Shown here one piece after another: positions 1,455 through 29,837 of a DNA stretch of 33,220 nucleotides. The notes beneath the pieces are model-generated. The model was given only the letters and a program-made list of their open reading frames with translations, made no database searches and was not told the DNA's origin. The first letter of the stretch is position 1. The number at the start of each line of letters is the position of its first letter. Made by a program: the position numbers and the translations under genes. The DNA lies in assembly GCA_023262945.1 (NCBI GenBank), contig JALQXY010000123.1, forward strand, positions 1 through 33,220, in the 5' to 3' direction. The DNA is from Rickettsiales bacterium (GTDB lineage: Bacteria > Pseudomonadota > Alphaproteobacteria > Rickettsiales > UBA1997).

Positions 1455-1627
1455 ATTTAAAATCCCTCAATAGATAAGTTGACTTAGATCATTAAATCCT
1501 GGCATAGAATTTATAATAAAAAATTCTAGCGCACTTTTTGATGCGTAAATCCTTTTCATTATAGTCAGGTATACTATGAGATGATTGATATAAATTAATT
1601 TTCTATTGATGGATTTGGGTTTAAATT
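1455..1627. repeat. Type-2 palindromic element, copy 1 (intact)
   Basis: Terminal inverted repeats: ATTTAAAATCCCTCAATAGATAAGTT at 1455..1480, and AATTTTCTATTGATGGATTTGGGTTTAAAT at 1598..1627. Both ends and the adjacent segment CATTAAAT..GGC are shared with 26875..26948 plus 27125..27157. An internal 8-bp-stem hairpin is TAGAATTT..AAATTCTA. Confidence 0.6.
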
Positions 1628-8771: not shown

Positions 8772-9315
8772 TTATTTTTAAGAAGATTTTAAATTAAAAA
8801 CAAAAATATAAATTAACAACAAATCATATCTTAATTCAGTAAAACCAATGTAAATCAAGCAATTTTGAGGAATTTTTGAGGGAGATTTAATAAAAAATTG
8901 ATTATTAATCATTTTTTTTTTTTTTTATTAAATCGGCAATTATTCTTTAAATTTTAACGTATCAAGATATACGAGAATTTAAAAAATAAAAATAACAACA
9001 AAAATACTAAAATTCTTTGATTTGTAGAGTTCTTTTAGTTTATAGCAAAATATTTTGTTAAAAATACTAATTAAAGATAAGATTTGGCATTATATATAAA
9101 TACAATCTTTAAAAAGAAAAATACCTTTTTAATTAGATTTGCTAAATTAATTTATATTTAAAAAAGATAAATTTTAATAAATTAAAAGATAGTTTTTGAT
9201 ATTTTAACCTATAATAATCAATCAAATTTTATATTTTTATTGGTCAATTTTTTTTTATGATAAATTTAAAAAATAAAATAACGATAAGATTACTAAAATT
9301 GATAATAAACTGAGA

Positions 9316-10014: not shown

Positions 10015-10050
10015 CTTAAGATAGCAATATATCGAATAAATTTAGAATTA

Positions 10051-10218
10051 TACCAATTCTCATCTAAAAATGAACAATATGACAAAATATTTTTGAGATA
10101 AAAATTGTAAAAAATGCAAGTCCTATACCTGTAGAACTTAAGGCTTTTTGCAATCTTTAACCAAAAAGATAAAGTCAGATTGTTTAGTCTTTATATGTTT
10201 TTTAGGTGGGAATTGGTA
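10051..10218 (-). mobile_element. Type-1 MITE-like palindromic element, copy B (complete, inverted orientation)
   Basis: Bounded by TACCAATTCTCATCTAAAAA (10051..) and TTTTTTAGGTGGGAATTGGTA (..10218). A TA dinucleotide sits immediately to the left. The interior is the reverse complement of copies A, D and E. Confidence 0.8.
10100..10139 (-). terminator. Terminator-like hairpin inside element copy B, downstream of rpmE
   Basis: The minus-strand RNA reads AAGUUCUACAGGUAUAGGACUU (an 8-9 bp stem with one mismatch) followed by GCAUUUUUUACAAUUUUU. It lies about 80 bp past the rpmE stop codon. Confidence 0.35.
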
Positions 10219-10479
10219 TTATTCGTTCATAAAATCAAGATTGCCAAATTTTTTCTTAAATTCCATAACTCTTTTATCGCTAGAATTAACAAATCCTTGA
10301 TTGTCTTTTTGCCAAGCTGGATGATTTTTAGGATCAATATCTAACTTTAAAACATCCCCTTCTTTACCCCAGCTAGTCATAATTTGAAATTTATAACCGT
10401 CAGTCATTTCAACATTAACCAAATGTTGTTTTGGATGGGTTAATTCTGTATTCTTAGATTTTGTTTGATTAGTAGACAT
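10219..10479 (-). CDS. rpmE: 50S ribosomal protein L31
   Basis: 86 aa. The core VEMTDGYKFQIMTSWGKEGDVLKLDIDPKNHPAWQ matches the alphaproteobacterial L31 pattern (..TRSTWGKEGDTLNLDIDP..HPAWTG). Confidence 0.8.
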   Translation of the reverse strand: MSTNQTKSKNTELTHPKQHLVNVEMTDGYKFQIMTSWGKEGDVLKLDIDPKNHPAWQKDNQGFVNSSDKRVMEFKKKFGNLDFMNE

Positions 10480-10700
10480 TTTTGAAAATATATATTTAGA
10501 AAATTAAATAATTATCGATTAAATCGCCAAAATCAGCCAATTTATGAAAAATGTATAAGATACATATAGCATATTAATGTTAAAGTCAAGTTTTTCAATT
10601 AAAAGACCCTTTTATACTAAATCCAATCTTTAAAAGTTTTGAAAAAATTAAAATTCTAGCCACATGTTTTTAGCTAAAAATCTCTAAAAAGACTCAGCTA

Positions 10701-10755
10701 TACCAATTCCCATCTAAAAATGAACAATATGACAAAATATTTTTGAGATAAAATT
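10701..10755 (-). mobile_element. Type-1 element, copy C (truncated, left 55 bp only)
   Basis: TACCAATTCCCATCTAAAAATGAACAATATGACAAAATATTTTTGAGATAAAATT matches 10051..10106 almost base for base. It is preceded by TA. Similarity stops at the nuoG stop codon (10756..10758). Confidence 0.75.
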
Positions 10756-12783
10756 TTAATTATTTTCAGCGCTACATTTATTAAGTATGCGTGAAGCGCG
10801 AGTAATCGGATTTGTAAGATAAAAATCATAATCTTGAGCCGATATATCGCCGCTAACATTTAAAGAGTTTTGTTTATCTTTTAGCCATTTGCGATCTAAT
10901 TCATTGATTGAGCTTTCTTTAAGATTCAGTTCTTTGATTAATTTTTTTATTAATTCTTGGCTATCGTTAAATCCTAAATCAATATCTAAATATTTTGCTA
11001 AATTTAATATTATTTCAACATCGTTCATTAGGTTAGCTATACCTAAAATTGATTTTTGGGTTTTTTGTATTTTTCCTTCAATATTAATATAAGAAGATTC
11101 TTTTTCGGCAAAAGTCAATCCTGGCAATATAACATCAGCAATATGAGCGCCTTTATCTCCATGAGACCCTATATATACTACAAAGCAGTTCTTGAGACTT
11201 TCAAAGTCAATGTCATCGTCAACGGAATGTAATATTATCATCTTAACATCTCCGGCTTGACATTGCTCAATTATGCTTTTTACAGAATGAGATCCTGTAA
11301 ATTCTAAGGCAAGACCATTAATTAAACCAGACTCTTTGGCTAAAAAGTTAAAACCATTCCAATTATCTTGAATAAAGTTAAATTTATCAGCAATAGCTTT
11401 AATAACTTTTATAATATCAAGGCTATTATATTTATTTACAGCATCGCTACCAACAATTAGCATTGGTTTTTTAGCTTTTTTAAGGTCTTGATTAATTTGA
11501 GATTTTTGTTGTAAAATATCAATAAGAGCCGACGAATCATTGCCAAGATTTTGATATTTATAGCCCAAATCTTTTTCGCAGCCAATTGCTGCTATTTTTA
11601 ACTCGCCACTTAAATATCTTTTACGAATTCTGGCATTAACAATAGGCGCATCTTTTTTTGGATTTACTCCAATTAACAAACAAAAGTCGGCCTCTTCAAT
11701 TCCAGAGATTCTGGTATTAAATAGATATGATTCTCTGTCGCTTGCTGTTAATTTTTCGTTTCTTAAGCGACAGTCAAAGCGACTAATGTTGGCATTTTGA
11801 CATATTTTTTTAAAAGCAAAAATTTCTTCCAAAGAGGAAAGATGTCCAGTTAATAGGGCTATTTGATCTGAATTTAGTAAGTTAAATTGTTTGCTAATAC
11901 ATGAATAAGCCTCTTCAAAAGAAGAAGATTGCAATTTGCCATCAATTTTGATATAAGGCTTGTCGAGTCTTTGATATTTAAGGCCATCATAACAAAATCG
12001 AGCTTTATCTGAAATCCATTCTTCGTTAATATCTTCATTGGCGTTTGGCAAGATTCTCATAACTTCTAGGCCTCGTGAATCAATGCGTATATTACTACCA
12101 ACTCCGTCCATAATATCTATAGAGTTAGTTTTTTTTAATTCCCAACTACGAGCTTTAAAAGAATAAGGTTTTGAAGTCAAGGCTCCAACTGGACATAGAT
12201 CTATAACATTTCCAGATAGTTCAGAGGAGACGGATTTTTCAAGATAGGTGGTTATTTCCATGTTTTCACCTCGACTTACGGCTCCTAATTCGCAAGTGCC
12301 AGCTACATCTTCGATAAATCTAACGCATCTAGTACAATGAATGCAGCGCGTCATGTGGGTTTTTATTAGTGGCCCCATATATTTATCTTTGACAGCTCTT
12401 TTATGCTCATTATAGCAACCCTCGCCTTTACCATATTGATAAGCTTGATCTTGTAAATCGCACTCTCCACCTTGATCACAAATCGGGCAGTCAAGTGGAT
12501 GGTTGGCCAATAAAAACTCCATCACGCCTTGACGCGCCTTAATTACCATATCTGAATCGGTTTTTATTTCCATGCCATCATTTATGGGCATAGCGCATGA
12601 AGCAATTGGCTTTGGAGGTCCGCCAACAACTTCAACTAGGCACATGCGACAGTTGCCCGCAATTGCTAATTTTTCATGATAACAAAAGCGAGGTATCTCG
12701 ATATTCAGCTGTTCGCAAGCTTGTATTATGGTTAAACCTGGCTCAACTTGGTATTTTTTTTTGTTAATAGTTATTTCTGGCAT
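10756..12783 (-). CDS. nuoG: NADH-quinone oxidoreductase subunit G (75-kDa subunit)
   Basis: 675 aa with an N-terminal 2Fe-2S ferredoxin fold (CYHEKLAIAGNCRMCLVEV) and the 4Fe-4S cluster motifs HPLDCPICDQGGECDLQD and CIHCTRCVRF. The remainder is a molybdopterin-oxidoreductase-like domain. Confidence 0.92.
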   Translation of the reverse strand: MPEITINKKKYQVEPGLTIIQACEQLNIEIPRFCYHEKLAIAGNCRMCLVEVVGGPPKPIASCAMPINDGMEIKTDSDMVIKARQGVMEFLLANHPLDCPICDQGGECDLQDQAYQYGKGEGCYNEHKRAVKDKYMGPLIKTHMTRCIHCTRCVRFIEDVAGTCELGAVSRGENMEITTYLEKSVSSELSGNVIDLCPVGALTSKPYSFKARSWELKKTNSIDIMDGVGSNIRIDSRGLEVMRILPNANEDINEEWISDKARFCYDGLKYQRLDKPYIKIDGKLQSSSFEEAYSCISKQFNLLNSDQIALLTGHLSSLEEIFAFKKICQNANISRFDCRLRNEKLTASDRESYLFNTRISGIEEADFCLLIGVNPKKDAPIVNARIRKRYLSGELKIAAIGCEKDLGYKYQNLGNDSSALIDILQQKSQINQDLKKAKKPMLIVGSDAVNKYNSLDIIKVIKAIADKFNFIQDNWNGFNFLAKESGLINGLALEFTGSHSVKSIIEQCQAGDVKMIILHSVDDDIDFESLKNCFVVYIGSHGDKGAHIADVILPGLTFAEKESSYINIEGKIQKTQKSILGIANLMNDVEIILNLAKYLDIDLGFNDSQELIKKLIKELNLKESSINELDRKWLKDKQNSLNVSGDISAQDYDFYLTNPITRASRILNKCSAENN

Positions 12784-24815: not shown

Positions 24816-25901
24816 TTATAATCTTATAAAATTCTGCAATTCGGATATAACCATTTCATTTTCTTGATTATTGCCAATGGTAATACGAAGAGCGCTAATT
24901 AAGTCGTAAGATGACATTTCACGAACCATGATATTTTTGTTTTGTAGCTCTATATTTGCCTTATCACAATTGTTTTTATCAAAAAAATCAATCAAAACAA
25001 AATTTCCTACGGATTTATGAATCTTAAAATTGGTATTTTGCACCAAGGAATCAAAGTAAATTTTTAGCCATTTGCTGTTATGTTCAATTGATTTCTCCAA
25101 AAACTCATTATCTTGCAAAGCTGCTATAGCTGATATTTGGGCAGGGCCTGAGACATTAAAAGGTCCTCTAATTTTATTGAGAATATCGGCTACATATTTA
25201 CTTCCATAACACCACCCTACCCTCAAAGAAGCTAATCCATAGATTTTAGAAAAGGTGCGCGTGATTACAATGTTATCGTTCTTTGCTACCAATTTTAAAA
25301 TATCTTTAGGATAATCTTTATTGGTAACAAATTCATCATAAGCATGATCAAAAACAATGAGTATATTTTTGGGCGTAAGTTCGATTAGGCGATATATTTC
25401 ATCTTTTGTTAAATAAGATCCTGTTGGATTGTTTGGATTAGCAATAAATATTATTTTGGTTTTTTCTGTAATAGAGTTAATAATGGCATTGATATCGGTT
25501 TTTAGATCTTGTTCTGCAGCCCTAACAGCTTTTGCTCCAACTCTTTTAGCAGAAATTGGATACATTAAAAATCCATGATGAGAGTAAATAATTTCATCTT
25601 CTTTTTGACAAAAGCCTTGCGTTAATAGCGCTATTAATTCGTCAGAGCCAGCGCCACAAACTATTTGCTCTGCATTTAAATTATATTTATTGGCTATAGT
25701 TTCGCGTAATTTTGTACATGAGCCATCACTGTAGCGCCATATATCTTGAGCAATATTTTTATAGGCCTCTTGCACCTTAGGGCTGCATCCCAAAGCATTT
25801 TCGTTAGCTGAAAGCTTTATAGCGTCAGACAGTCCTATTTTAGATTTGCCTGGCTTATAGCTTATTATTTCTTCTAAGTAATTATTGGCTTTTATTGTCA
25901 T
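24816..25901 (-). CDS. hisC: Histidinol-phosphate aminotransferase (class II aminotransferase)
   Basis: 361 aa with KLSANENALGCSP, NPNNPTGSY and the PLP-lysine context TRTFSKIYGLASLRVGW. Its start overlaps the parB 3' end by 20 bp. Confidence 0.85.
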   Translation of the reverse strand: MTIKANNYLEEIISYKPGKSKIGLSDAIKLSANENALGCSPKVQEAYKNIAQDIWRYSDGSCTKLRETIANKYNLNAEQIVCGAGSDELIALLTQGFCQKEDEIIYSHHGFLMYPISAKRVGAKAVRAAEQDLKTDINAIINSITEKTKIIFIANPNNPTGSYLTKDEIYRLIELTPKNILIVFDHAYDEFVTNKDYPKDILKLVAKNDNIVITRTFSKIYGLASLRVGWCYGSKYVADILNKIRGPFNVSGPAQISAIAALQDNEFLEKSIEHNSKWLKIYFDSLVQNTNFKIHKSVGNFVLIDFFDKNNCDKANIELQNKNIMVREMSSYDLISALRITIGNNQENEMVISELQNFIRL

Positions 25902-26799
25902 TTTGTAAAATTTGGATTAGATTTTTTAGTAAAGCTAAATCTTTAAATTTTAAAGTAATTTGCCCGGTGTTCTTTGCATTATTATATTTTATTTTAGCAT
26001 CCATATTGCTTAGATTGTTTATGATTTTTGTCATATCCTCAATCTCGTTAATGGTTTCAGCACTATTTCTTTGAATGGGCTTTAATTTAATCTTGTTATT
26101 AGCTATATTTTCAACGTCTCGTACGGTTAAAGACTTTTCTAGAATTAGATGAGCAACTTCTTCAGCGTTGCTGCAATTAATTAATGCGCGAGCATGTCCC
26201 ATAGTAATCAAATTATCATCCACCAAGCTCTGTACTGATTCAGGTAAGCTTAATAGCCGCATCAGGTTAGCAACATGGCTTCGACTTTTGCCAACTTTTC
26301 TAGCTATATGTTCCTGATTATAAGAAAAATCAGTAGATAATCTTTTAAATCCCTTGGCCTCTTCAATAACAGAAAGTTCAGACCTTTGAATATTTTCGAT
26401 CAAGGCCATTTCCAAAGCTTGATGATTGTTGAGTTTTTTAATGATCGCAGGAATTGTTTTAAGGTTAGCTATTTTTGACGCTCTAAATCTTCTTTCGCCA
26501 GCAATAATCTCGTATTTACCCTCTTTTTCGTCAATTGGTCTTACGATAATTGGCTGAATAACGTCATTTTCTTTTATTGACTGCGCTAATTCTTCTAGAT
26601 CGTTTTCATTAAAATTGTATCTAGGCTGACAGCTTCCAGCTTTTATTTTGTCAATTTCTAGATCAACAACCTCGACTCGTAAATTGTTGTAAAGAATATT
26701 TCTAGAATTATGCTTTTCTGCACTTATTAGCGCAGAAATGCCTTGCCCTAATTTATTGTTAATGTTTTTATTAAATTTGTTTGATGGGGCTGCTTTCAT
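25882..26799 (-). CDS. parB: Chromosome partitioning protein ParB
   Basis: 305 aa with GQGISALI, the ParB box IIAGERRFRASK and the HTH segment QEHIARKVGKSRSHVANLMRLLSLP. Confidence 0.92.
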   Translation of the reverse strand: MKAAPSNKFNKNINNKLGQGISALISAEKHNSRNILYNNLRVEVVDLEIDKIKAGSCQPRYNFNENDLEELAQSIKENDVIQPIIVRPIDEKEGKYEIIAGERRFRASKIANLKTIPAIIKKLNNHQALEMALIENIQRSELSVIEEAKGFKRLSTDFSYNQEHIARKVGKSRSHVANLMRLLSLPESVQSLVDDNLITMGHARALINCSNAEEVAHLILEKSLTVRDVENIANNKIKLKPIQRNSAETINEIEDMTKIINNLSNMDAKIKYNNAKNTGQITLKFKDLALLKNLIQILQNDNKSQ

Positions 26800-26840
26800 A
26801 AATATTTAATTAGTTTGTGTTTATTTTATAAATTTTAAAA

Positions 26841-26856
26841 TGTTTCACGTGAAACA
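26841..26856. promoter_or_regulatory. parS: parS centromere site 1 (perfect palindrome TGTTTCACGTGAAACA)
   Basis: Exact match to the palindromic form of the conserved chromosomal parS consensus (TGTTNCACGTGAAACA). It lies 41 bp upstream of the parB start codon. Confidence 0.85.
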
Positions 26857-26874
26857 TTTTAGAATCTTTAGTAG

Positions 26875-27157
26875 CTTTAAATCCTAACCCGCCAATAGAA
26901 AGTTGGCTTGGTCATTAAATAGGGCTAGATGCGCTATGGCATAATGGTATAATAGCAACTCTTACCTAAAAAAACATATAAAAACTAAACAATCTGACTT
27001 TATCTTTTTGGCTAAAAATTGCAAAAAGCCCTAAGTCCTATAGGCATATGACTTGCATTTTTTACAATTTTTATCTTAAAAAATATTTTGTCATATTGTT
27101 CATTTTTAGATGGTAATTGGTATAAATCAACTTTCTATTGACGGATTTGGGTTAAAT
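26875..27157. repeat. Type-2 palindromic element, copy 2, interrupted by a type-1 element
   Basis: The left arm CTTTAAATCCTAACCCGCCAATAGAAAGTTGGCTTGGTCATTAAAT and the right arm CAACTTTCTATTGACGGATTTGGGTTAAAT are inverted repeats of each other and are homologous to the ends of 1455..1627. The type-1 element 26950..27122 sits between them. Confidence 0.6.
26950..27122 (+). mobile_element. Type-1 MITE-like palindromic element, copy D (nested inside type-2 copy 2)
   Basis: Full-length copy with a somewhat degenerate left repeat (TAATAGCAACTCTTACCTAAAAAA) and the right repeat TTTTTAGATGGTAATTGGTA. TA flanks it on both sides (26948..26949 and 27123..27124). Confidence 0.8.
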
Positions 27158-27235
27158 ACTAAATTCGATGCTATTGTTTAAATTTCATGATTTTTTGGGT
27201 AATTTTAAATAAAATTTGATTATAATTTACAATCA

Positions 27236-28009
27236 TTAACAAAAGTTTTTGGCCAATATTTCCTTTGCAAGCATTTTGTAAGCGATGGATCCTTGGCATT
27301 TTGGGTCATATATTAAAGCTGGCTTTCCATATGACGGAGCTTCAGAAAGTCTAACGTTTCGTGGTACTATATTTTTAAAAACTTTATCTCCTAGGTAATT
27401 TCTTACATCAATTTCAACGGCTTCAGTTAATTTGTTTCTACAGTCATGCATGGTTAAAACTATGCCAGCTATCTTTAATTGATAGTTAAGGTTGTTTTTT
27501 ACCAATTCTAGCGTTGTTAACAAATGACTAAGGCCTTCTAAGCTAAAAAATTCACATTGCATCGGAATTAATACGTAATCTGAGGCAACTAAGCTATTAA
27601 TTGTCAAAACACCCAGCGATGGAGGACAGTCTATTAATATATAATCAAATTCATTTTTGATTTTTTCTAGATTATTTTTTAAGATAAAGTTTTTTCCTTC
27701 GATATTAACAAACTCAAGCTCTATTGCCGATAAATCAACAGTTGAGGTTATTATCTTGAGATTTTTTATTCTAGTTGGTATTATAGAGTTTTTTATTTCG
27801 TAATTTCCTATCAAAACATCATATATGGTATTTTGTCTCTCATTGTAAGCAATTCCCATTCCCGTACTAGCATTGCCCTGTGGATCTATGTCGACAATTA
27901 GAACCTTTTTTTTCGACTTGGCTAGAGCTGTAGCAAGATTTACAGCTGTGGTTGTTTTTCCTACACCCCCTTTTTGATTAACTATAGAAAATATTTTTGC
28001 TAAACTCAT
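27236..28009 (-). CDS. parA: Chromosome partitioning ATPase ParA/Soj
   Basis: 257 aa with the deviant Walker A motif NQKGGVGKTTTAVNLA and the blocks DIDPQGNAS and IDCPPSLG. Confidence 0.92.
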   Translation of the reverse strand: MSLAKIFSIVNQKGGVGKTTTAVNLATALAKSKKKVLIVDIDPQGNASTGMGIAYNERQNTIYDVLIGNYEIKNSIIPTRIKNLKIITSTVDLSAIELEFVNIEGKNFILKNNLEKIKNEFDYILIDCPPSLGVLTINSLVASDYVLIPMQCEFFSLEGLSHLLTTLELVKNNLNYQLKIAGIVLTMHDCRNKLTEAVEIDVRNYLGDKVFKNIVPRNVRLSEAPSYGKPALIYDPKCQGSIAYKMLAKEILAKNFC

Positions 28010-28132
28010 TAATGTTGTCTAAAAATGTTAATTATTGATATCTTCAAAAGATAACTTTGTATTAAAAGCCCTTATAAATCAACGAAATTTGTTAATTTTA
28101 TTTATAATTAATTTATTTTATTTGCAGCAATG

Positions 28133-28297
28133 CTAATTCTCATCTAAAAACATATAAAAACTAAACAGCCTGACTTTATCTTTTTGGCTAAAAATTGCAA
28201 AAAGCCCTAAGTCCTATAGGCATAGGACTTGCATTTTTTACAATTTTTATCTCAAAAATATCTCGTTATATTGTTCATTTTTAGATGGGAATTGGTA
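28133..28297 (+). mobile_element. Type-1 MITE-like palindromic element, copy E
   Basis: Near-identical interior to copies A and D. The left repeat is shortened (CTAATTCTCATCTAAAAA). The right repeat TTTTTAGATGGGAATTGGTA is followed by TA. A perfect 9-bp stem, AAGTCCTAT/ATAGGACTT, spans 28209..28230 and is followed by GCATTTTTT. Confidence 0.8.
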
Positions 28298-28475
28298 TAA
28301 GTTGCAAATTACTTGAAAGCTAAAACTTTCTACATCATTTGTGTCATTATTTTTATTTTTTTAATTCGCGATCTTGATACACTAATTTGAATTTACATAG
28401 ATCTTTTAGATTCTAATCTTGTTTTTGTCTAGAAATTATAAAAAGCCTTAAAATTTGTTAATTAAAAATCATAAA

Positions 28476-28491
28476 TGTTTCACGTGAAACA
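28476..28491. promoter_or_regulatory. parS: parS centromere site 2 (TGTTTCACGTGAAACA)
   Basis: Perfect 16-bp palindrome in the tadA-parA spacer. Confidence 0.85.
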
Positions 28492-28575
28492 TTTGTTGAT
28501 TCGTTTTTAATAGATGCTTGCATTAATTGCGAAGATCTTTTTTTGCGTAAAGATCAATTTTGACAAAAATTACAG

Positions 28576-28591
28576 TGTTTCACGTGAAACA
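28576..28591. promoter_or_regulatory. parS: parS centromere site 3 (TGTTTCACGTGAAACA)
   Basis: Perfect 16-bp palindrome exactly 100 bp from site 2. It ends one base before the tadA stop codon (28592..28594). Confidence 0.85.
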
Positions 28592-29042: not shown

Positions 29043-29837
29043 TTATATTGCTAATGCTTTAGTAAATAGTTTATGAAAATTATTTGTGGTATTTGTTTTG
29101 ATTGTTTCACGTGAAACATTTTTTAAAGTAGCTATAAAATCAACGATATATTTAGTAAAAGCTGGCTGATTTATTTTGCCACGATTGGGGGATGGAGCTA
29201 AATAAGGGGAGTCAGTTTCGACTAATATTCGATCTAAAGGGATAAATTTAACCAATTCCTGCAACTCTTTAGCGTTTTTAAAGGTAACAATTCCCGAGAT
29301 AGAAATATACATTCCTAGATCTAGAGCTGTTTTTGCTAAAGATTTTGTACTTGAGAAGCAATGTATCAATGCTGGAAACGATTTATTTTTTTGTTCGCTT
29401 TGCAGTATGTCTGCCATATCTTTGTCTGAATTACGATTGTGAATTATGGTAGGTAGTTGCGATTGCTGAGAAGATTTGATATGCTCAATAAAGCTATCTT
29501 GTTGCTTTTTGATAAAGGAGGTATCATGATAATAATCAAGGCCAGTTTCTCCTATTCCAATAATTTTAGGATTTTGCTGGATAATTGACAATATTTGCTG
29601 CGAAGAGTAGATCCCTTCTTGATTAACGTTGCATGGATGAACCCCAACCGAGGCGTAGATATTTTTGTATTTATTAGCGAAGTAGATAATGTTATCAATT
29701 TCAGAAATCTTAGTGCAAATAGTTTGTAACAATCTGACATCATTTTCTTGAGCATTTTTTACAATTTCATCGATATTAAAGCCTTTTTCTAAAATTAGAT
29801 CTAAGTGACAATGGCTATCAACAATATAATTATTCAT
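29043..29837 (-). CDS. tatD: TatD-family metal-dependent hydrolase (DNase)
   Basis: 264 aa with the N-terminal motif DSHCHLD, then GVHP, GETGLDY, IHNR/IHCF and ETDSPYL. Confidence 0.88.
   Translation of the reverse strand: MNNYIVDSHCHLDLILEKGFNIDEIVKNAQENDVRLLQTICTKISEIDNIIYFANKYKNIYASVGVHPCNVNQEGIYSSQQILSIIQQNPKIIGIGETGLDYYHDTSFIKKQQDSFIEHIKSSQQSQLPTIIHNRNSDKDMADILQSEQKNKSFPALIHCFSSTKSLAKTALDLGMYISISGIVTFKNAKELQELVKFIPLDRILVETDSPYLAPSPNRGKINQPAFTKYIVDFIATLKNVSRETIKTNTTNNFHKLFTKALAI
29103..29118. promoter_or_regulatory. parS: parS centromere site 4, embedded in the tatD coding sequence
   Basis: Perfect TGTTTCACGTGAAACA. On the coding (minus) strand, GTT TCA CGT GAA ACA encodes V-S-R-E-T within the TatD segment KNVSRETIK. 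Confidence 0.8.

What the first reader, a model, noticed from the sequence alone, without database searches (positions are those of the whole stretch)
26800..27235. parA-parB operon split by a 436-bp spacer containing a nested pair of palindromic elements
parA and parB are normally adjacent or overlapping. Here parA stops at 27236 and parB starts at 26799. The spacer is almost entirely repeat DNA. A type-2 element (26875..27157) has itself been interrupted by a type-1 element (26950..27122, with TA on both sides). This gives a relative order of insertion: type 2 first, then type 1. The type-1 hairpin plus U-tract, read on the parA-parB coding (minus) strand, lies between the two genes and could uncouple parB transcription from parA. 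Repeat invasion of the partition operon, directly beside the centromere sites, is unusual and may matter functionally.
Basis: partly seen in the sequence, partly recalled or inferred. Interest (0 to 1): 0.65.

Follow-up and report, generated by a model that had tools for sequence, protein, structure and literature searches.

The report
Nested mobile repeats between parA and parB
The long gap between the chromosome-partition genes parA and parB is real: one small non-coding mobile repeat sits inside another, in a genome that holds hundreds of such repeats, so this is ordinary mobile-element litter and no effect on the operon has been shown.

Summary
parA (27236-28009, -) and parB (25882-26799, -) are 436 bp apart. 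About 282 bp of that (65%) is a type-2 palindromic element (26876-27156) interrupted by a type-1 element (26953-27122).

I refined three points:
- Type 1 is flanked by a 3-nt TAA duplication, not TA. Uninterrupted type-2 copies carry a single TAA at that position.
- The two nearest syntenic relatives already have a 40-83 bp parA-parB spacer holding one parS. The spacer and its parS are therefore ancestral, and the repeats landed between the parA stop and parS.
- Type 1 reaches about 560-780 times single-copy depth in three metagenomes. It targets TWA, and another copy (28131-28297) is present or absent between strains. Type-2 arms reach about 26-40 times.

Six of the eleven spacers over 100 nt in the window hold these elements, and a second nested case lies just outside the window. 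These are MITE-like elements of new families but a known kind.

The terminator idea is weak. The window's copy has a -3.0 kcal/mol central hairpin and fails the terminator scan, and two assemblies disagree at exactly that hairpin. No RNA data exist. The insertion is carried by every population that could be checked, and parA and parB look intact.

The parts
25882..26799 (-). parB (305 aa), intact
   Evidence: It has ParB_N and HTH_ParB domains. The GERRFRAS and ENIQR motifs are present in the translation. Syntenic relatives are 62-66% identical.
26800..26840 (-). Single-copy parB leader between parS and the parB ATG
   Evidence: It has no repeat match. No promoter-like site was called here on the - strand.
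26841..26856 (.). parS site TGTTTCACGTGAAACA inside the parA-parB spacer (ancestral)
   Evidence: The window has 4 exact matches against 0 expected. A parS sits in the parA-parB spacer of both relatives.
26857..26875 (.). Single-copy flank; 26867-26875 (TTTAGTAGC) is half of a 16-nt palindrome restored when the elements are removed
   Evidence: Depth is single copy. Palindrome test.
26876..26949 (.). Type-2 element, left arm plus shortened centre
   Evidence: It matches 1455-1627 at 27/30 positions, with 0 of 2000 shuffles reaching the score. It is an inverted repeat of 27128-27161 (I17). This particular copy is single copy at 85% likeness or more.
26950..26952 (.). TAA, left copy of the 3-nt target-site duplication made by type 1
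26953..27122 (+). Type-1 element (170 nt): imperfect full-length palindrome with a degenerate left end
   Evidence: It is 90-91% identical to other full copies. Depth is about 560-780 times single copy. As RNA it folds as one long hairpin, -39.4 kcal/mol, z = -3.3.
27123..27125 (.). TAA, right copy of the target-site duplication
   Evidence: Other copies diverge after GGTAT+TA (target TTA) or after GGTA+TAA (target TAA) (loose ends at 27123 and 27125).
27126..27156 (.). Type-2 element, right arm
   Evidence: It matches 1590-1624 at 31/35 positions, with 0 of 2000 shuffles reaching the score. Depth is 26-40 times single copy and drops at 27154-27160.
27157..27235 (-). Single-copy spacer after the parA stop; 27157-27163 (TACTAAA) is the other half of the palindrome
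27236..28009 (-). parA (257 aa), intact
   Evidence: It has AAA_31/CbiA/ParA domains. The Walker A motif KGGVGKT is present. The C-terminus matches the relatives.
28131..28297 (+). Second type-1 copy, in the tadA-parA spacer, same orientation; present or absent between strains
   Evidence: Copy identified. Empty alleles occur in runs X6 and X3/X5/X7. Its central hairpin is called terminator-like on both strands.
28476..28591 (.). Two further parS sites (28476-28491 and 28576-28591) upstream of parA; a fourth lies at 29103-29118 inside tatD
1455..1627 (.). Full-length uninterrupted type-2 copy used as the reference
   Evidence: Its terminal 40 nt reach 12-20 times single-copy depth and its centre 5-8 times.
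10051..10218 (-). Type-1 copy whose TAA duplication is the rpmE stop codon

Best explanation
**What it is.** The parA-parB gap is an ancestral short spacer that carries a parS site. It was enlarged by about 280 bp when two non-coding, palindromic, transposon-like repeats (MITE-like elements) landed in it.

**History.**
- A type-2 element lies between the parA stop and parS. It is an inverted pair of roughly 40-60-nt arms, and this copy has lost part of its centre.
- A type-1 element of about 168 nt later inserted into a TAA in the right part of that type-2 copy and duplicated the TAA.

**Shown here.**
- Both elements belong to multi-copy families.
- Type 1 targets TWA.
- Type 1 has been gained or lost recently at a neighbouring site.
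- The relatives' spacers are short and contain parS.
- The insertion is present in every population that could be checked.

**Inferred.**
- The insertion is a selfish, near-neutral passenger rather than a device of the partition system.
- parB is still made. The likely route is read-through from parA across a long structured intercistronic RNA, which RNase III may cleave, as it does Correia-containing mRNAs in Neisseria.
- A possible extra contribution is a promoter-like TGCTATTAT box (extended -10 type). It is formed where the left end of type 1 meets its TAA and faces parB.
- parS function should be unaffected, because the site itself is untouched.
For: **Families are real.**
- Type-1 copies are 88-91% identical to one another, with conserved ends TACCAATTCCCACCT...AGATGGGAATTGGTA.
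- Depth is about 12,100 / 26,200 / 3,490 against single-copy 21.6 / 33.5 / 5.1 in runs X1-X3, which is about 560-780 times.
- Type-2 arms are significant against 1455-1627 and reach 26-40 times single-copy depth.

**Target-site duplication.**
- Flanks are TAA/TAA, TAA/TAA, TTA/TTA and TTA/TTA, plus CAA/TAA at 28131-28297, where an empty allele reads TTTG-TAG-TAA-GTTG.
- Dozens of other copies diverge after a TTA or a TAA.
- Uninterrupted type-2 copies have one TAA at the insertion point.

**Mobility.** The copy at 28131-28297 is absent in X6 and in the X3/X5/X7 strain.

**Ancestral state.** Relatives share the gene order ubiA-coaD-tatD-tadA-parA-parB-hisC. Their spacers are 83 and 40 bp, each with a parS, and hold no type-1 or type-2 DNA.

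**Not special to parAB.**
- Six of the eleven spacers over 100 nt hold these elements.
- One copy sits on the rpmE stop codon.
- Another type-1 copy is itself split by a third palindromic element.

**Tolerated.**
- Both strain types carry the insertion: unitigs run from parB into type 1 in X1, X2, X3, X4, X6 and X7.
- ParA and ParB keep their domains and motifs.

**Structure.** The spacer RNA folds as nested hairpins, -99.9 kcal/mol, z = -6.9.

**Known behaviour of such elements.** Prokaryotic MITEs can carry promoters, undergo RNase III cleavage, form terminator-like structures, and insert into one another (PMC10969869).
Against: - No autonomous transposon with the same ends was found, so 'MITE' rests on ends, duplication, copy number and polymorphism only.
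- No target duplication could be defined for type 2. Its left arm and centre at this locus are more than 15% diverged from every other copy.
- The interior of the type-1 copy differs at five positions between two assemblies.
- There are no transcript data at all, so 'near-neutral' and 'read-through' are inferences.
- The promoter-like box was not picked up by the consensus scan. That scan found no more sites than shuffled sequence gives (10 against 12.4 expected).
- The insertion is fixed in all sampled populations while the neighbouring copy is polymorphic. That is also what selection for the insertion would produce.
Confidence: 0.75

Rival explanations
1. Regulatory co-option. The type-1 element acts as a punctuation cassette: a central bidirectional terminator-like hairpin plus outward-facing extended -10 boxes at its ends. 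It now splits parAB into two transcription units, so parB, next to its parS, is expressed independently of parA.
For: - The canonical type-1 centre is called terminator-like on both strands at 28208-28231, at -9.6 kcal/mol.
- The other assembly gives the parAB copy that canonical hairpin.
- Element ends joined to TWA read TGGTATAAT, TGGTATTAT or, here, TGCTATTAT.
- The parAB copy is present in all populations checked, while the neighbouring copy is polymorphic.
- Correia elements and other MITEs are known to carry promoters (PMC10969869).
Against: - The window's copy has a -3.0 kcal/mol hairpin and fails the scan on both strands.
- On the parAB strand the U-run begins 5 nt after the stem, and in the fold it is paired with an upstream A-run.
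- Promoter-like sites are no more frequent than in shuffled sequence.
- Copies sit in spacers of every gene arrangement and in both orientations, as expected for untargeted litter.
- There are no RNA data.
Confidence: 0.17
2. Single event. A type-2 element that already carried a type-1 inside it transposed into the spacer as one composite. The nesting would then say nothing about the order of events at this locus.
For: At least three other single-copy-depth unitigs join a type-1 end to a type-2 right arm at the same TAA (records 6-8 and 14-16).
Against: - The left arm and centre of the local type-2 copy (26855-26946) are strictly single copy at 85% likeness or more in three runs. The composite as a whole is therefore not repeated.
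- Recurrent insertion into the same TAA of different type-2 copies explains the shared right junction.
Confidence: 0.06
3. Assembly artefact. The repeats caused two unlinked contigs to be joined, or a repeat copy was wrongly placed in the spacer.
For: - k=31 unitigs break inside the element at 26993 and 27127.
- Several contigs end there.
- Two assemblies differ inside the element.
Against: - Unique flanks run into the element from both sides in independent runs.
- The two type-2 arms lie on opposite flanks and pair with each other.
- parA-parB adjacency is the syntenic order in the relatives.
- Two k=141 assemblies span the structure.
Confidence: 0.02

Closest known systems
Correia elements (CREE/NEMIS) of Neisseria
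   Same: - Both are non-coding elements of about 100-200 bp with terminal inverted repeats, over 100 copies, and a position mostly between genes, including inside operons.
- Both duplicate a short A/T target that becomes part of a TATA-like box at the element end.
- Correia elements are known to supply promoters and to be cut by RNase III in mRNA (PMC10969869).
- Both show presence/absence differences between strains.
   Different: - There is no recognisable sequence similarity. This rests on my recollection of the Correia ends and was not tested.
- The duplication here is 3 nt TWA, not the TA I recall for Correia.
- The host is an AT-rich Rickettsiales-like aquatic bacterium.
- No IHF site or promoter activity has been shown.
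Tourist-type MITEs and their PIF/Harbinger or IS5-family (IS1031-group) parents
   Same: They share a 3-nt TWA/TNA target duplication and short terminal inverted repeats. This comparison rests on my own knowledge of these families.
   Different: No transposase partner was found, so the link rests on the duplication alone.
Rickettsia palindromic elements (RPE)
   Same: Both are palindromic repeats of about 100-170 nt scattered in a small AT-rich alphaproteobacterial genome labelled Rickettsiales.
   Different: - RPEs are known for in-frame insertion into protein genes, and as far as I know lack clear duplications.
- All copies seen here are intergenic and have a TWA duplication.
- The organism is not Rickettsia. 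Its nearest named relatives are 'MAG: Rickettsiales bacterium' at 64-67% LeuRS identity.
Pneumococcal BOX/RUP/SPRITE clusters
   Same: Different small repeat families cluster in the same spacers and insert into one another. One family (SPRITE) looks like a terminator (PMC10969869, PMC3049150).
   Different: The sequences and the host are unrelated.
Chromosomal parABS (Soj/Spo0J) loci
   Same: The locus has a Walker-type ParA, a ParB with N-terminal and HTH domains, and the 16-bp parS consensus clustered around the operon.
   Different: - This clade has a parS inside the parA-parB spacer.
- The spacer is 436 bp, against a median of about 12 bp and a maximum of 232 bp in 80 other loci.

Membership tests
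Prokaryotic MITE (type 1) | Small size and no coding capacity | tested here: met
   The element is 167-171 nt. No ORF of 40 aa or more lies within the copy. It has no Rfam match.
Prokaryotic MITE (type 1) | Terminal inverted repeats | tested here: met
   The ends are TACCAATTCCCACCTAAAAA and TTTTTAGATGGGAATTGGTA. The whole element is 65-69% self-complementary.
Prokaryotic MITE (type 1) | Target-site duplication | tested here: met
   The duplication is 3 nt TWA. It is seen in 4 clean copies and 1 near-match, in one empty allele, in paralogous uninterrupted type-2 sites, and in population-level loose ends.
Prokaryotic MITE (type 1) | Many dispersed copies | tested here: met
   Depth is about 560-780 times single copy in three runs. 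There is one copy per roughly 7 kb in the 47 kb held.
Prokaryotic MITE (type 1) | Evidence of movement (presence/absence between strains) | tested here: met
   The copy at 28131-28297 is absent in X6 and in X3/X5/X7. The parAB copy itself showed no empty allele.
Prokaryotic MITE (type 1) | Autonomous partner with the same ends and a transposase | not testable with these tools
   The full genome is not available. There is no transposase in the window, its extensions or L113. Plasmid and virus collections gave nothing.
Prokaryotic MITE (type 2) | Terminal inverted repeats and multiple copies | tested here: met
   The arms pair with each other and match 1455-1627. The arm reaches 12-40 times single-copy depth.
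Prokaryotic MITE (type 2) | Target-site duplication | tested here: inconclusive
   No direct repeat flanks either copy. The flanks of the parAB copy are inverted instead (TTTAGTAGC / TACTAAA).
Correia element | TA duplication and the Correia-specific 26-bp ends | tested here: not met
   The duplication here is TWA, 3 nt. The ends differ from the Correia ends as I recall them, and no reference sequence was compared.
Rickettsia palindromic element | Sequence membership in RPE-1 to RPE-8; frequent in-frame insertion in genes | not testable with these tools
   No RPE library was available and Rfam holds none that matched. All eight copies or fragments seen are intergenic.
Intrinsic (Rho-independent) terminator, for the type-1 centre at 27030-27060 | Stable G+C-containing stem directly followed by a U-run on the transcribed strand | tested here: not met
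   No site was called in the parAB copy on either strand. The stem is -3.0 kcal/mol, and the U-run starts 5 nt after it. The copy at 28208-28231, and the other assembly's version of this copy, have the -9.6 kcal/mol stem.
Chromosomal ParABS system | ParA ATPase, ParB with CTPase-type N-domain and HTH, and parS palindromes nearby | tested here: met
   Pfam domains. The KGGVGKT and GERRFRAS motifs. Four exact parS sites against 0 expected.

The most novel reading that the evidence does not exclude
Type-1 elements are portable transcription punctuation. Each would carry a bidirectional terminator-like hairpin and, together with its TWA duplication, an outward-facing extended -10 box at each end. 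Hundreds of copies would then have rewired operons across a small aquatic Rickettsiales-like genome. At parAB, the fixed copy would have made parB an independent, parS-adjacent transcription unit.
Probability: 0.12. Interest if true: 0.55.

Novelty: new member of a known kind. Interest (0 to 1): 0.3.

Why it matters
- The finding shows how a TWA-targeting mini-transposon can pepper a small genome, apparently without breaking genes. It can even land on a stop codon and inside an essential-type operon next to the centromere.
- It supplies two, probably three, undescribed repeat families for an uncultured Rickettsiales-like lineage.
- These repeats are the reason assemblies of this organism fragment.
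- Beyond that, this is expected behaviour for bacterial MITEs. Any consequence for chromosome partition remains to be shown.

Tried and rejected
- **Empty site in a close relative.** The only near-identical contig with overlapping parA/parB (L007) is a chimera. It is identical to the window downstream of the GERRF motif and only about 60% identical upstream, at 1.8x coverage. I rejected it as an empty allele.
- **Genome contigs.** An exact scan for the type-1 pattern found nothing. The ParB-based scan found no relative closer than 51%.
- **Metagenome contigs.** Of 23 pattern hits, only L113 (74%-diverged copies between housekeeping genes) and L116 (a 105-nt short form) are real. The rest are chance.
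- **Viral contigs.** Two chance hits for type 1 and none for type 2.
- **Plasmid collection.** No match.
- **Rfam.** Nothing at the gathering threshold. The only weak hit, E = 0.87, is a plant miRNA model lying over the two parS sites.
- **RNA evidence.** The only candidate run (X12) is of unknown type, at about 3x depth spread evenly over genes, and looks like DNA.
- **Empty allele of the parAB insertion.** None was found in eight runs.
- **Cluster names for relatives.** None were given.
- **Insertion at the centre of palindromes.** I considered this as a general rule and rejected it. Type 1 in type 2 and type 3 in type 1 are both off-centre.

Full report
**1. What is in the sequence**

On the minus strand, parA is 27236-28009. 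It has AAA_31, CbiA and ParA domains and the Walker A motif KGGVGKT. parB is 25882-26799, with ParB_N and HTH_ParB domains and the GERRFRAS motif. The spacer between them, 26800-27235, is 436 bp. The parS consensus TGTTTCACGTGAAACA occurs four times in the window, at 26841, 28476, 28576 and 29103, against 0 expected. One of these sites lies inside the spacer, 41 nt upstream of the parB ATG.

**2. The repeats are real**

Type 1:
- The copy in the spacer matches 1-155 (cut by the window start), 10051-10218(-), 28131-28297(+), a half copy at 10699-10756, and further copies just outside the window.
- Full copies are 167-171 nt and 88-91% identical to each other. Their conserved ends are TACCAATTCCCACCT and AGATGGGAATTGGTA, and each is 65-69% self-complementary over its whole length.

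Type 2:
- Both arms at 26876-26949 and 27126-27156 match the uninterrupted element at 1455-1627. The left arm matches at 27 of 30 positions and the right at 31 of 35. No shuffle in 2000 reached either score.
- The two arms pair with each other (I17).
- The local copy is about 105 nt after removal of type 1, against 173 nt for the reference. It has lost part of its centre.

**3. Copy number and boundaries from public metagenomes**

The organism is present in estuary and other aquatic metagenomes. I laid Logan unitigs of three runs on the junction.
- Type 1 plateaus at about 12,100 / 26,200 / 3,490. Single-copy depth is 21.6 / 33.5 / 5.1, so the ratio is about 560-780 times.
- The type-2 right arm plateaus at 567 / 1,353 / 197, which is 26-40 times.
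- Sharp depth steps fall at 27123-27126 and at 27154-27160.
- The type-2 reference copy shows 12-20 times depth for its terminal 40 nt and 5-8 times for its centre.
- The 47 kb of this genome that I could assemble from the window and contig extensions holds six full type-1 copies, or one per roughly 7 kb.

Both estimates put type 1 at hundreds of copies.

**4. Target and duplication**

The flanks of the clean copies are:

| Copy | Left flank | Right flank |
|---|---|---|
| 10051-10218 | TAA | TAA |
| parAB copy (26953-27122) | TAA | TAA |
| Copy right of the window | TTA | TTA |
| Split copy left of the window | TTA | TTA |
| 28131-28297 | CAA | TAA |

 Further points:
- In run X6 a unitig lacks 28125-28297 and reads TTTG-TAG-TAA-GTTG, an empty site with a single TAA.
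- Across the population, other copies diverge from the window either after GGTAT followed by TA (target TTA) or after GGTATAA (target TAA).
- The 1455 copy, and the consensus of other uninterrupted type-2 copies, have exactly one TAA where the parAB copy has TAA-[type 1]-TAA. Type 1 therefore entered an existing type-2 element at a TAA.
- The left TAA of the 10051-10218 copy is the stop codon of rpmE. This shows how such an element can sit hard against a gene without damaging it.

**5. Ancestral state**

- The exact ParB occurs on 11 contigs. Short-read contigs break 194 nt upstream of parB, inside type 1.
- The two closest relatives have 66% and 62% ParB identity and share the gene order ubiA-coaD-tatD-tadA-parA-parB-hisC. 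Their parA-parB spacers are 83 and 40 bp, each with one parS, and hold no type-1 or type-2 DNA.
- The spacer and its parS therefore predate the repeats, and the elements landed between the parA stop and parS.
- In 80 other parAB loci my approximate gap has a median of about 12 nt and a maximum of 232 nt. 55 of the 80 are 20 nt or less. 436 bp is extreme in general, but only about 280 bp of it is new here.
- Removing both elements leaves 155 bp and restores a perfect 16-nt palindrome, TTTAGTAGCTACTAAA, 10 nt from parS. The chance of such a flank palindrome is about 1e-3 before allowing for post-hoc choice. I leave this unexplained.

**6. Is the structure trustworthy?**

- Unitigs at single-copy depth run from parB through the type-2 left part and 41 nt into type 1 (to 26993) in runs X1, X2, X3, X4, X6 and X7. 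These runs include a second strain marked by SNPs.
- In X12 a unitig covers 27092-27380, from the type-1 end through the type-2 arm into parA.
- Two k=141 assemblies span everything.
- They disagree at five positions inside type 1: 27049 T/G, 27076, 27078, 27112 and 27114. The interior of this copy is therefore uncertain.
- L007, which seemed to show overlapping parA/parB at 94% ParB identity, is a chimera.

**7. Not special to parAB**

- Six of the eleven spacers over 100 nt in the window hold type-1 or type-2 DNA: 1-166, 1424-1651, 10015-10218, 10480-10755, 26800-27235 and 28010-28591.
- Copies lie between convergent, divergent and co-directional genes, in both orientations.
- 1.1 kb left of the window, a type-1 copy is itself split by a third palindromic element of about 146 nt. 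Nesting is therefore common in this genome.
- At least three other loci join a type-1 end to a type-2 right arm at the same TAA. The local left part, 26855-26946, is strictly single copy. This favours recurrent insertion at a preferred site over movement of the composite as a unit.

**8. Function**

- As RNA on the parAB strand, the spacer folds into nested hairpins: type-2 arms outside, type 1 inside, and the parS palindrome alongside. The energy is -99.9 kcal/mol, z = -6.9.
- The type-1 centre of the neighbouring copy is called terminator-like on both strands. The parAB copy is not called on either strand.
- The central stem of the parAB copy is -3.0 kcal/mol in the window, against -9.6 for the canonical version. 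The base responsible, 27049, is one of the positions where the assemblies disagree.
- On the parAB strand the U-run starts 5 nt after the stem and pairs with an upstream A-run.
- Promoter-like sites are no more frequent than in shuffled sequence.
- By eye, the element ends joined to TWA give TGGTATAAT- or TGGTATTAT-type boxes. At the parB-facing end of this copy the box reads TGCTATTAT. This is a hypothesis only.
- No RNA run with usable depth exists.
- parA and parB look intact, and all sampled populations keep the insertion, so parB must still be expressed.

My best reading, at about 0.75, is a selfish and tolerated insertion. I expect parB to be expressed by read-through, and the long hairpin may be processed as Correia-containing mRNAs are (PMC10969869). 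I give regulatory uncoupling about 0.17.

**9. Comparison with known systems**

- By size, inverted ends, duplication, copy number and polymorphism, type 1 meets the working definition of a prokaryotic MITE. The one missing feature is a known autonomous partner.
- It behaves like Correia elements but is not one, because the duplication is TWA rather than TA.
- The TWA duplication recalls Tourist/Harbinger elements and the IS1031 group of the IS5 family. This rests on my own knowledge and was not tested.
- Membership in the Rickettsia palindromic elements could not be tested.
- Nested and clustered small repeats are known in pneumococcus (PMC10969869, PMC3049150).
- The host is an uncultured AT-rich alphaproteobacterium with 31% G+C. 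Its nearest named relatives are 'MAG: Rickettsiales bacterium' at 64-67% LeuRS identity.

**10. Verdict**

These are new repeat families of a well-known kind. Interest is modest unless transcript data show that the element really splits the operon.

Noticed in passing
window 10051-10221: A type-1 copy inserted exactly at the TAA stop codon of rpmE (L31, 10219-10479 -). The duplicated TAA keeps the stop intact.
   Followed up: yes
window 28125-28336: The type-1 copy upstream of parA is present or absent between strains. Run X6 has an empty site (28124->28298 with TAG between). Runs X3/X5/X7 replace 28127-28336 by 33 nt. parA is thus flanked by two direct type-1 copies 1.2 kb apart only in some strains.
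   Followed up: partly
L120 about 12449-12771 (1.0-1.35 kb left of the window start): One type-1 copy is split by a third palindromic element of about 146 nt. Its ends read AGACTTCTTTCG...CGAAAGAAGTCT, and it is flanked by AAT/TAAT. Related fragments lie at window 8942-9014 and 28337-28380.
   Followed up: partly
window 26867-26875 + 27157-27163: Deleting the nested elements restores a perfect 16-nt palindrome, TTTAGTAGCTACTAAA, 10 nt from parS. The chance is about 1e-3. It could be a pre-existing hairpin or operator, a remnant of an older element, or a target preference of type 2.
   Followed up: partly
window 27091-27157: At least three other single-copy-depth unitigs per run join a type-1 end to a type-2 right arm at the same TAA. 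This suggests a preferred insertion site. The type-2 sequence before the TAA (AATGGTA / ATTGATA) resembles the type-1 end (AATTGGTA).
   Followed up: partly
window 27049, 27076, 27078, 27112, 27114: Two assemblies of the same locus differ at these five positions inside the type-1 copy. The other assembly carries the family-consensus bases, including the one that restores the strong central hairpin. This is either strain variation or consensus bleed between repeat copies.
   Followed up: partly
window 29103-29118: The fourth exact parS site lies inside the tatD coding region, near its 3' end.
   Followed up: no
L007 1-340: This low-coverage ENA contig is a chimera. Its first roughly 340 nt come from a different organism with overlapping parA/parB (ATGA), and the rest is identical to the window.
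   Followed up: yes
L116 161-271; window joint 27013->27079: A short form of type 1 of about 105 nt, lacking the central 65 nt, exists in a JGI contig and elsewhere in the same metagenomes.
   Followed up: partly
L113 486-661, 697-795, 3917-4021: A JGI contig with housekeeping genes (glpX, secB, queH, hda, fabD) carries type-1-like elements only about 74% identical. This indicates that the family also exists in a related organism.
   Followed up: partly
L120 11429-11505 (just left of the window start): tRNA-Arg(TCG) lies directly beside the type-1 copy that is cut by the window start.
   Followed up: no
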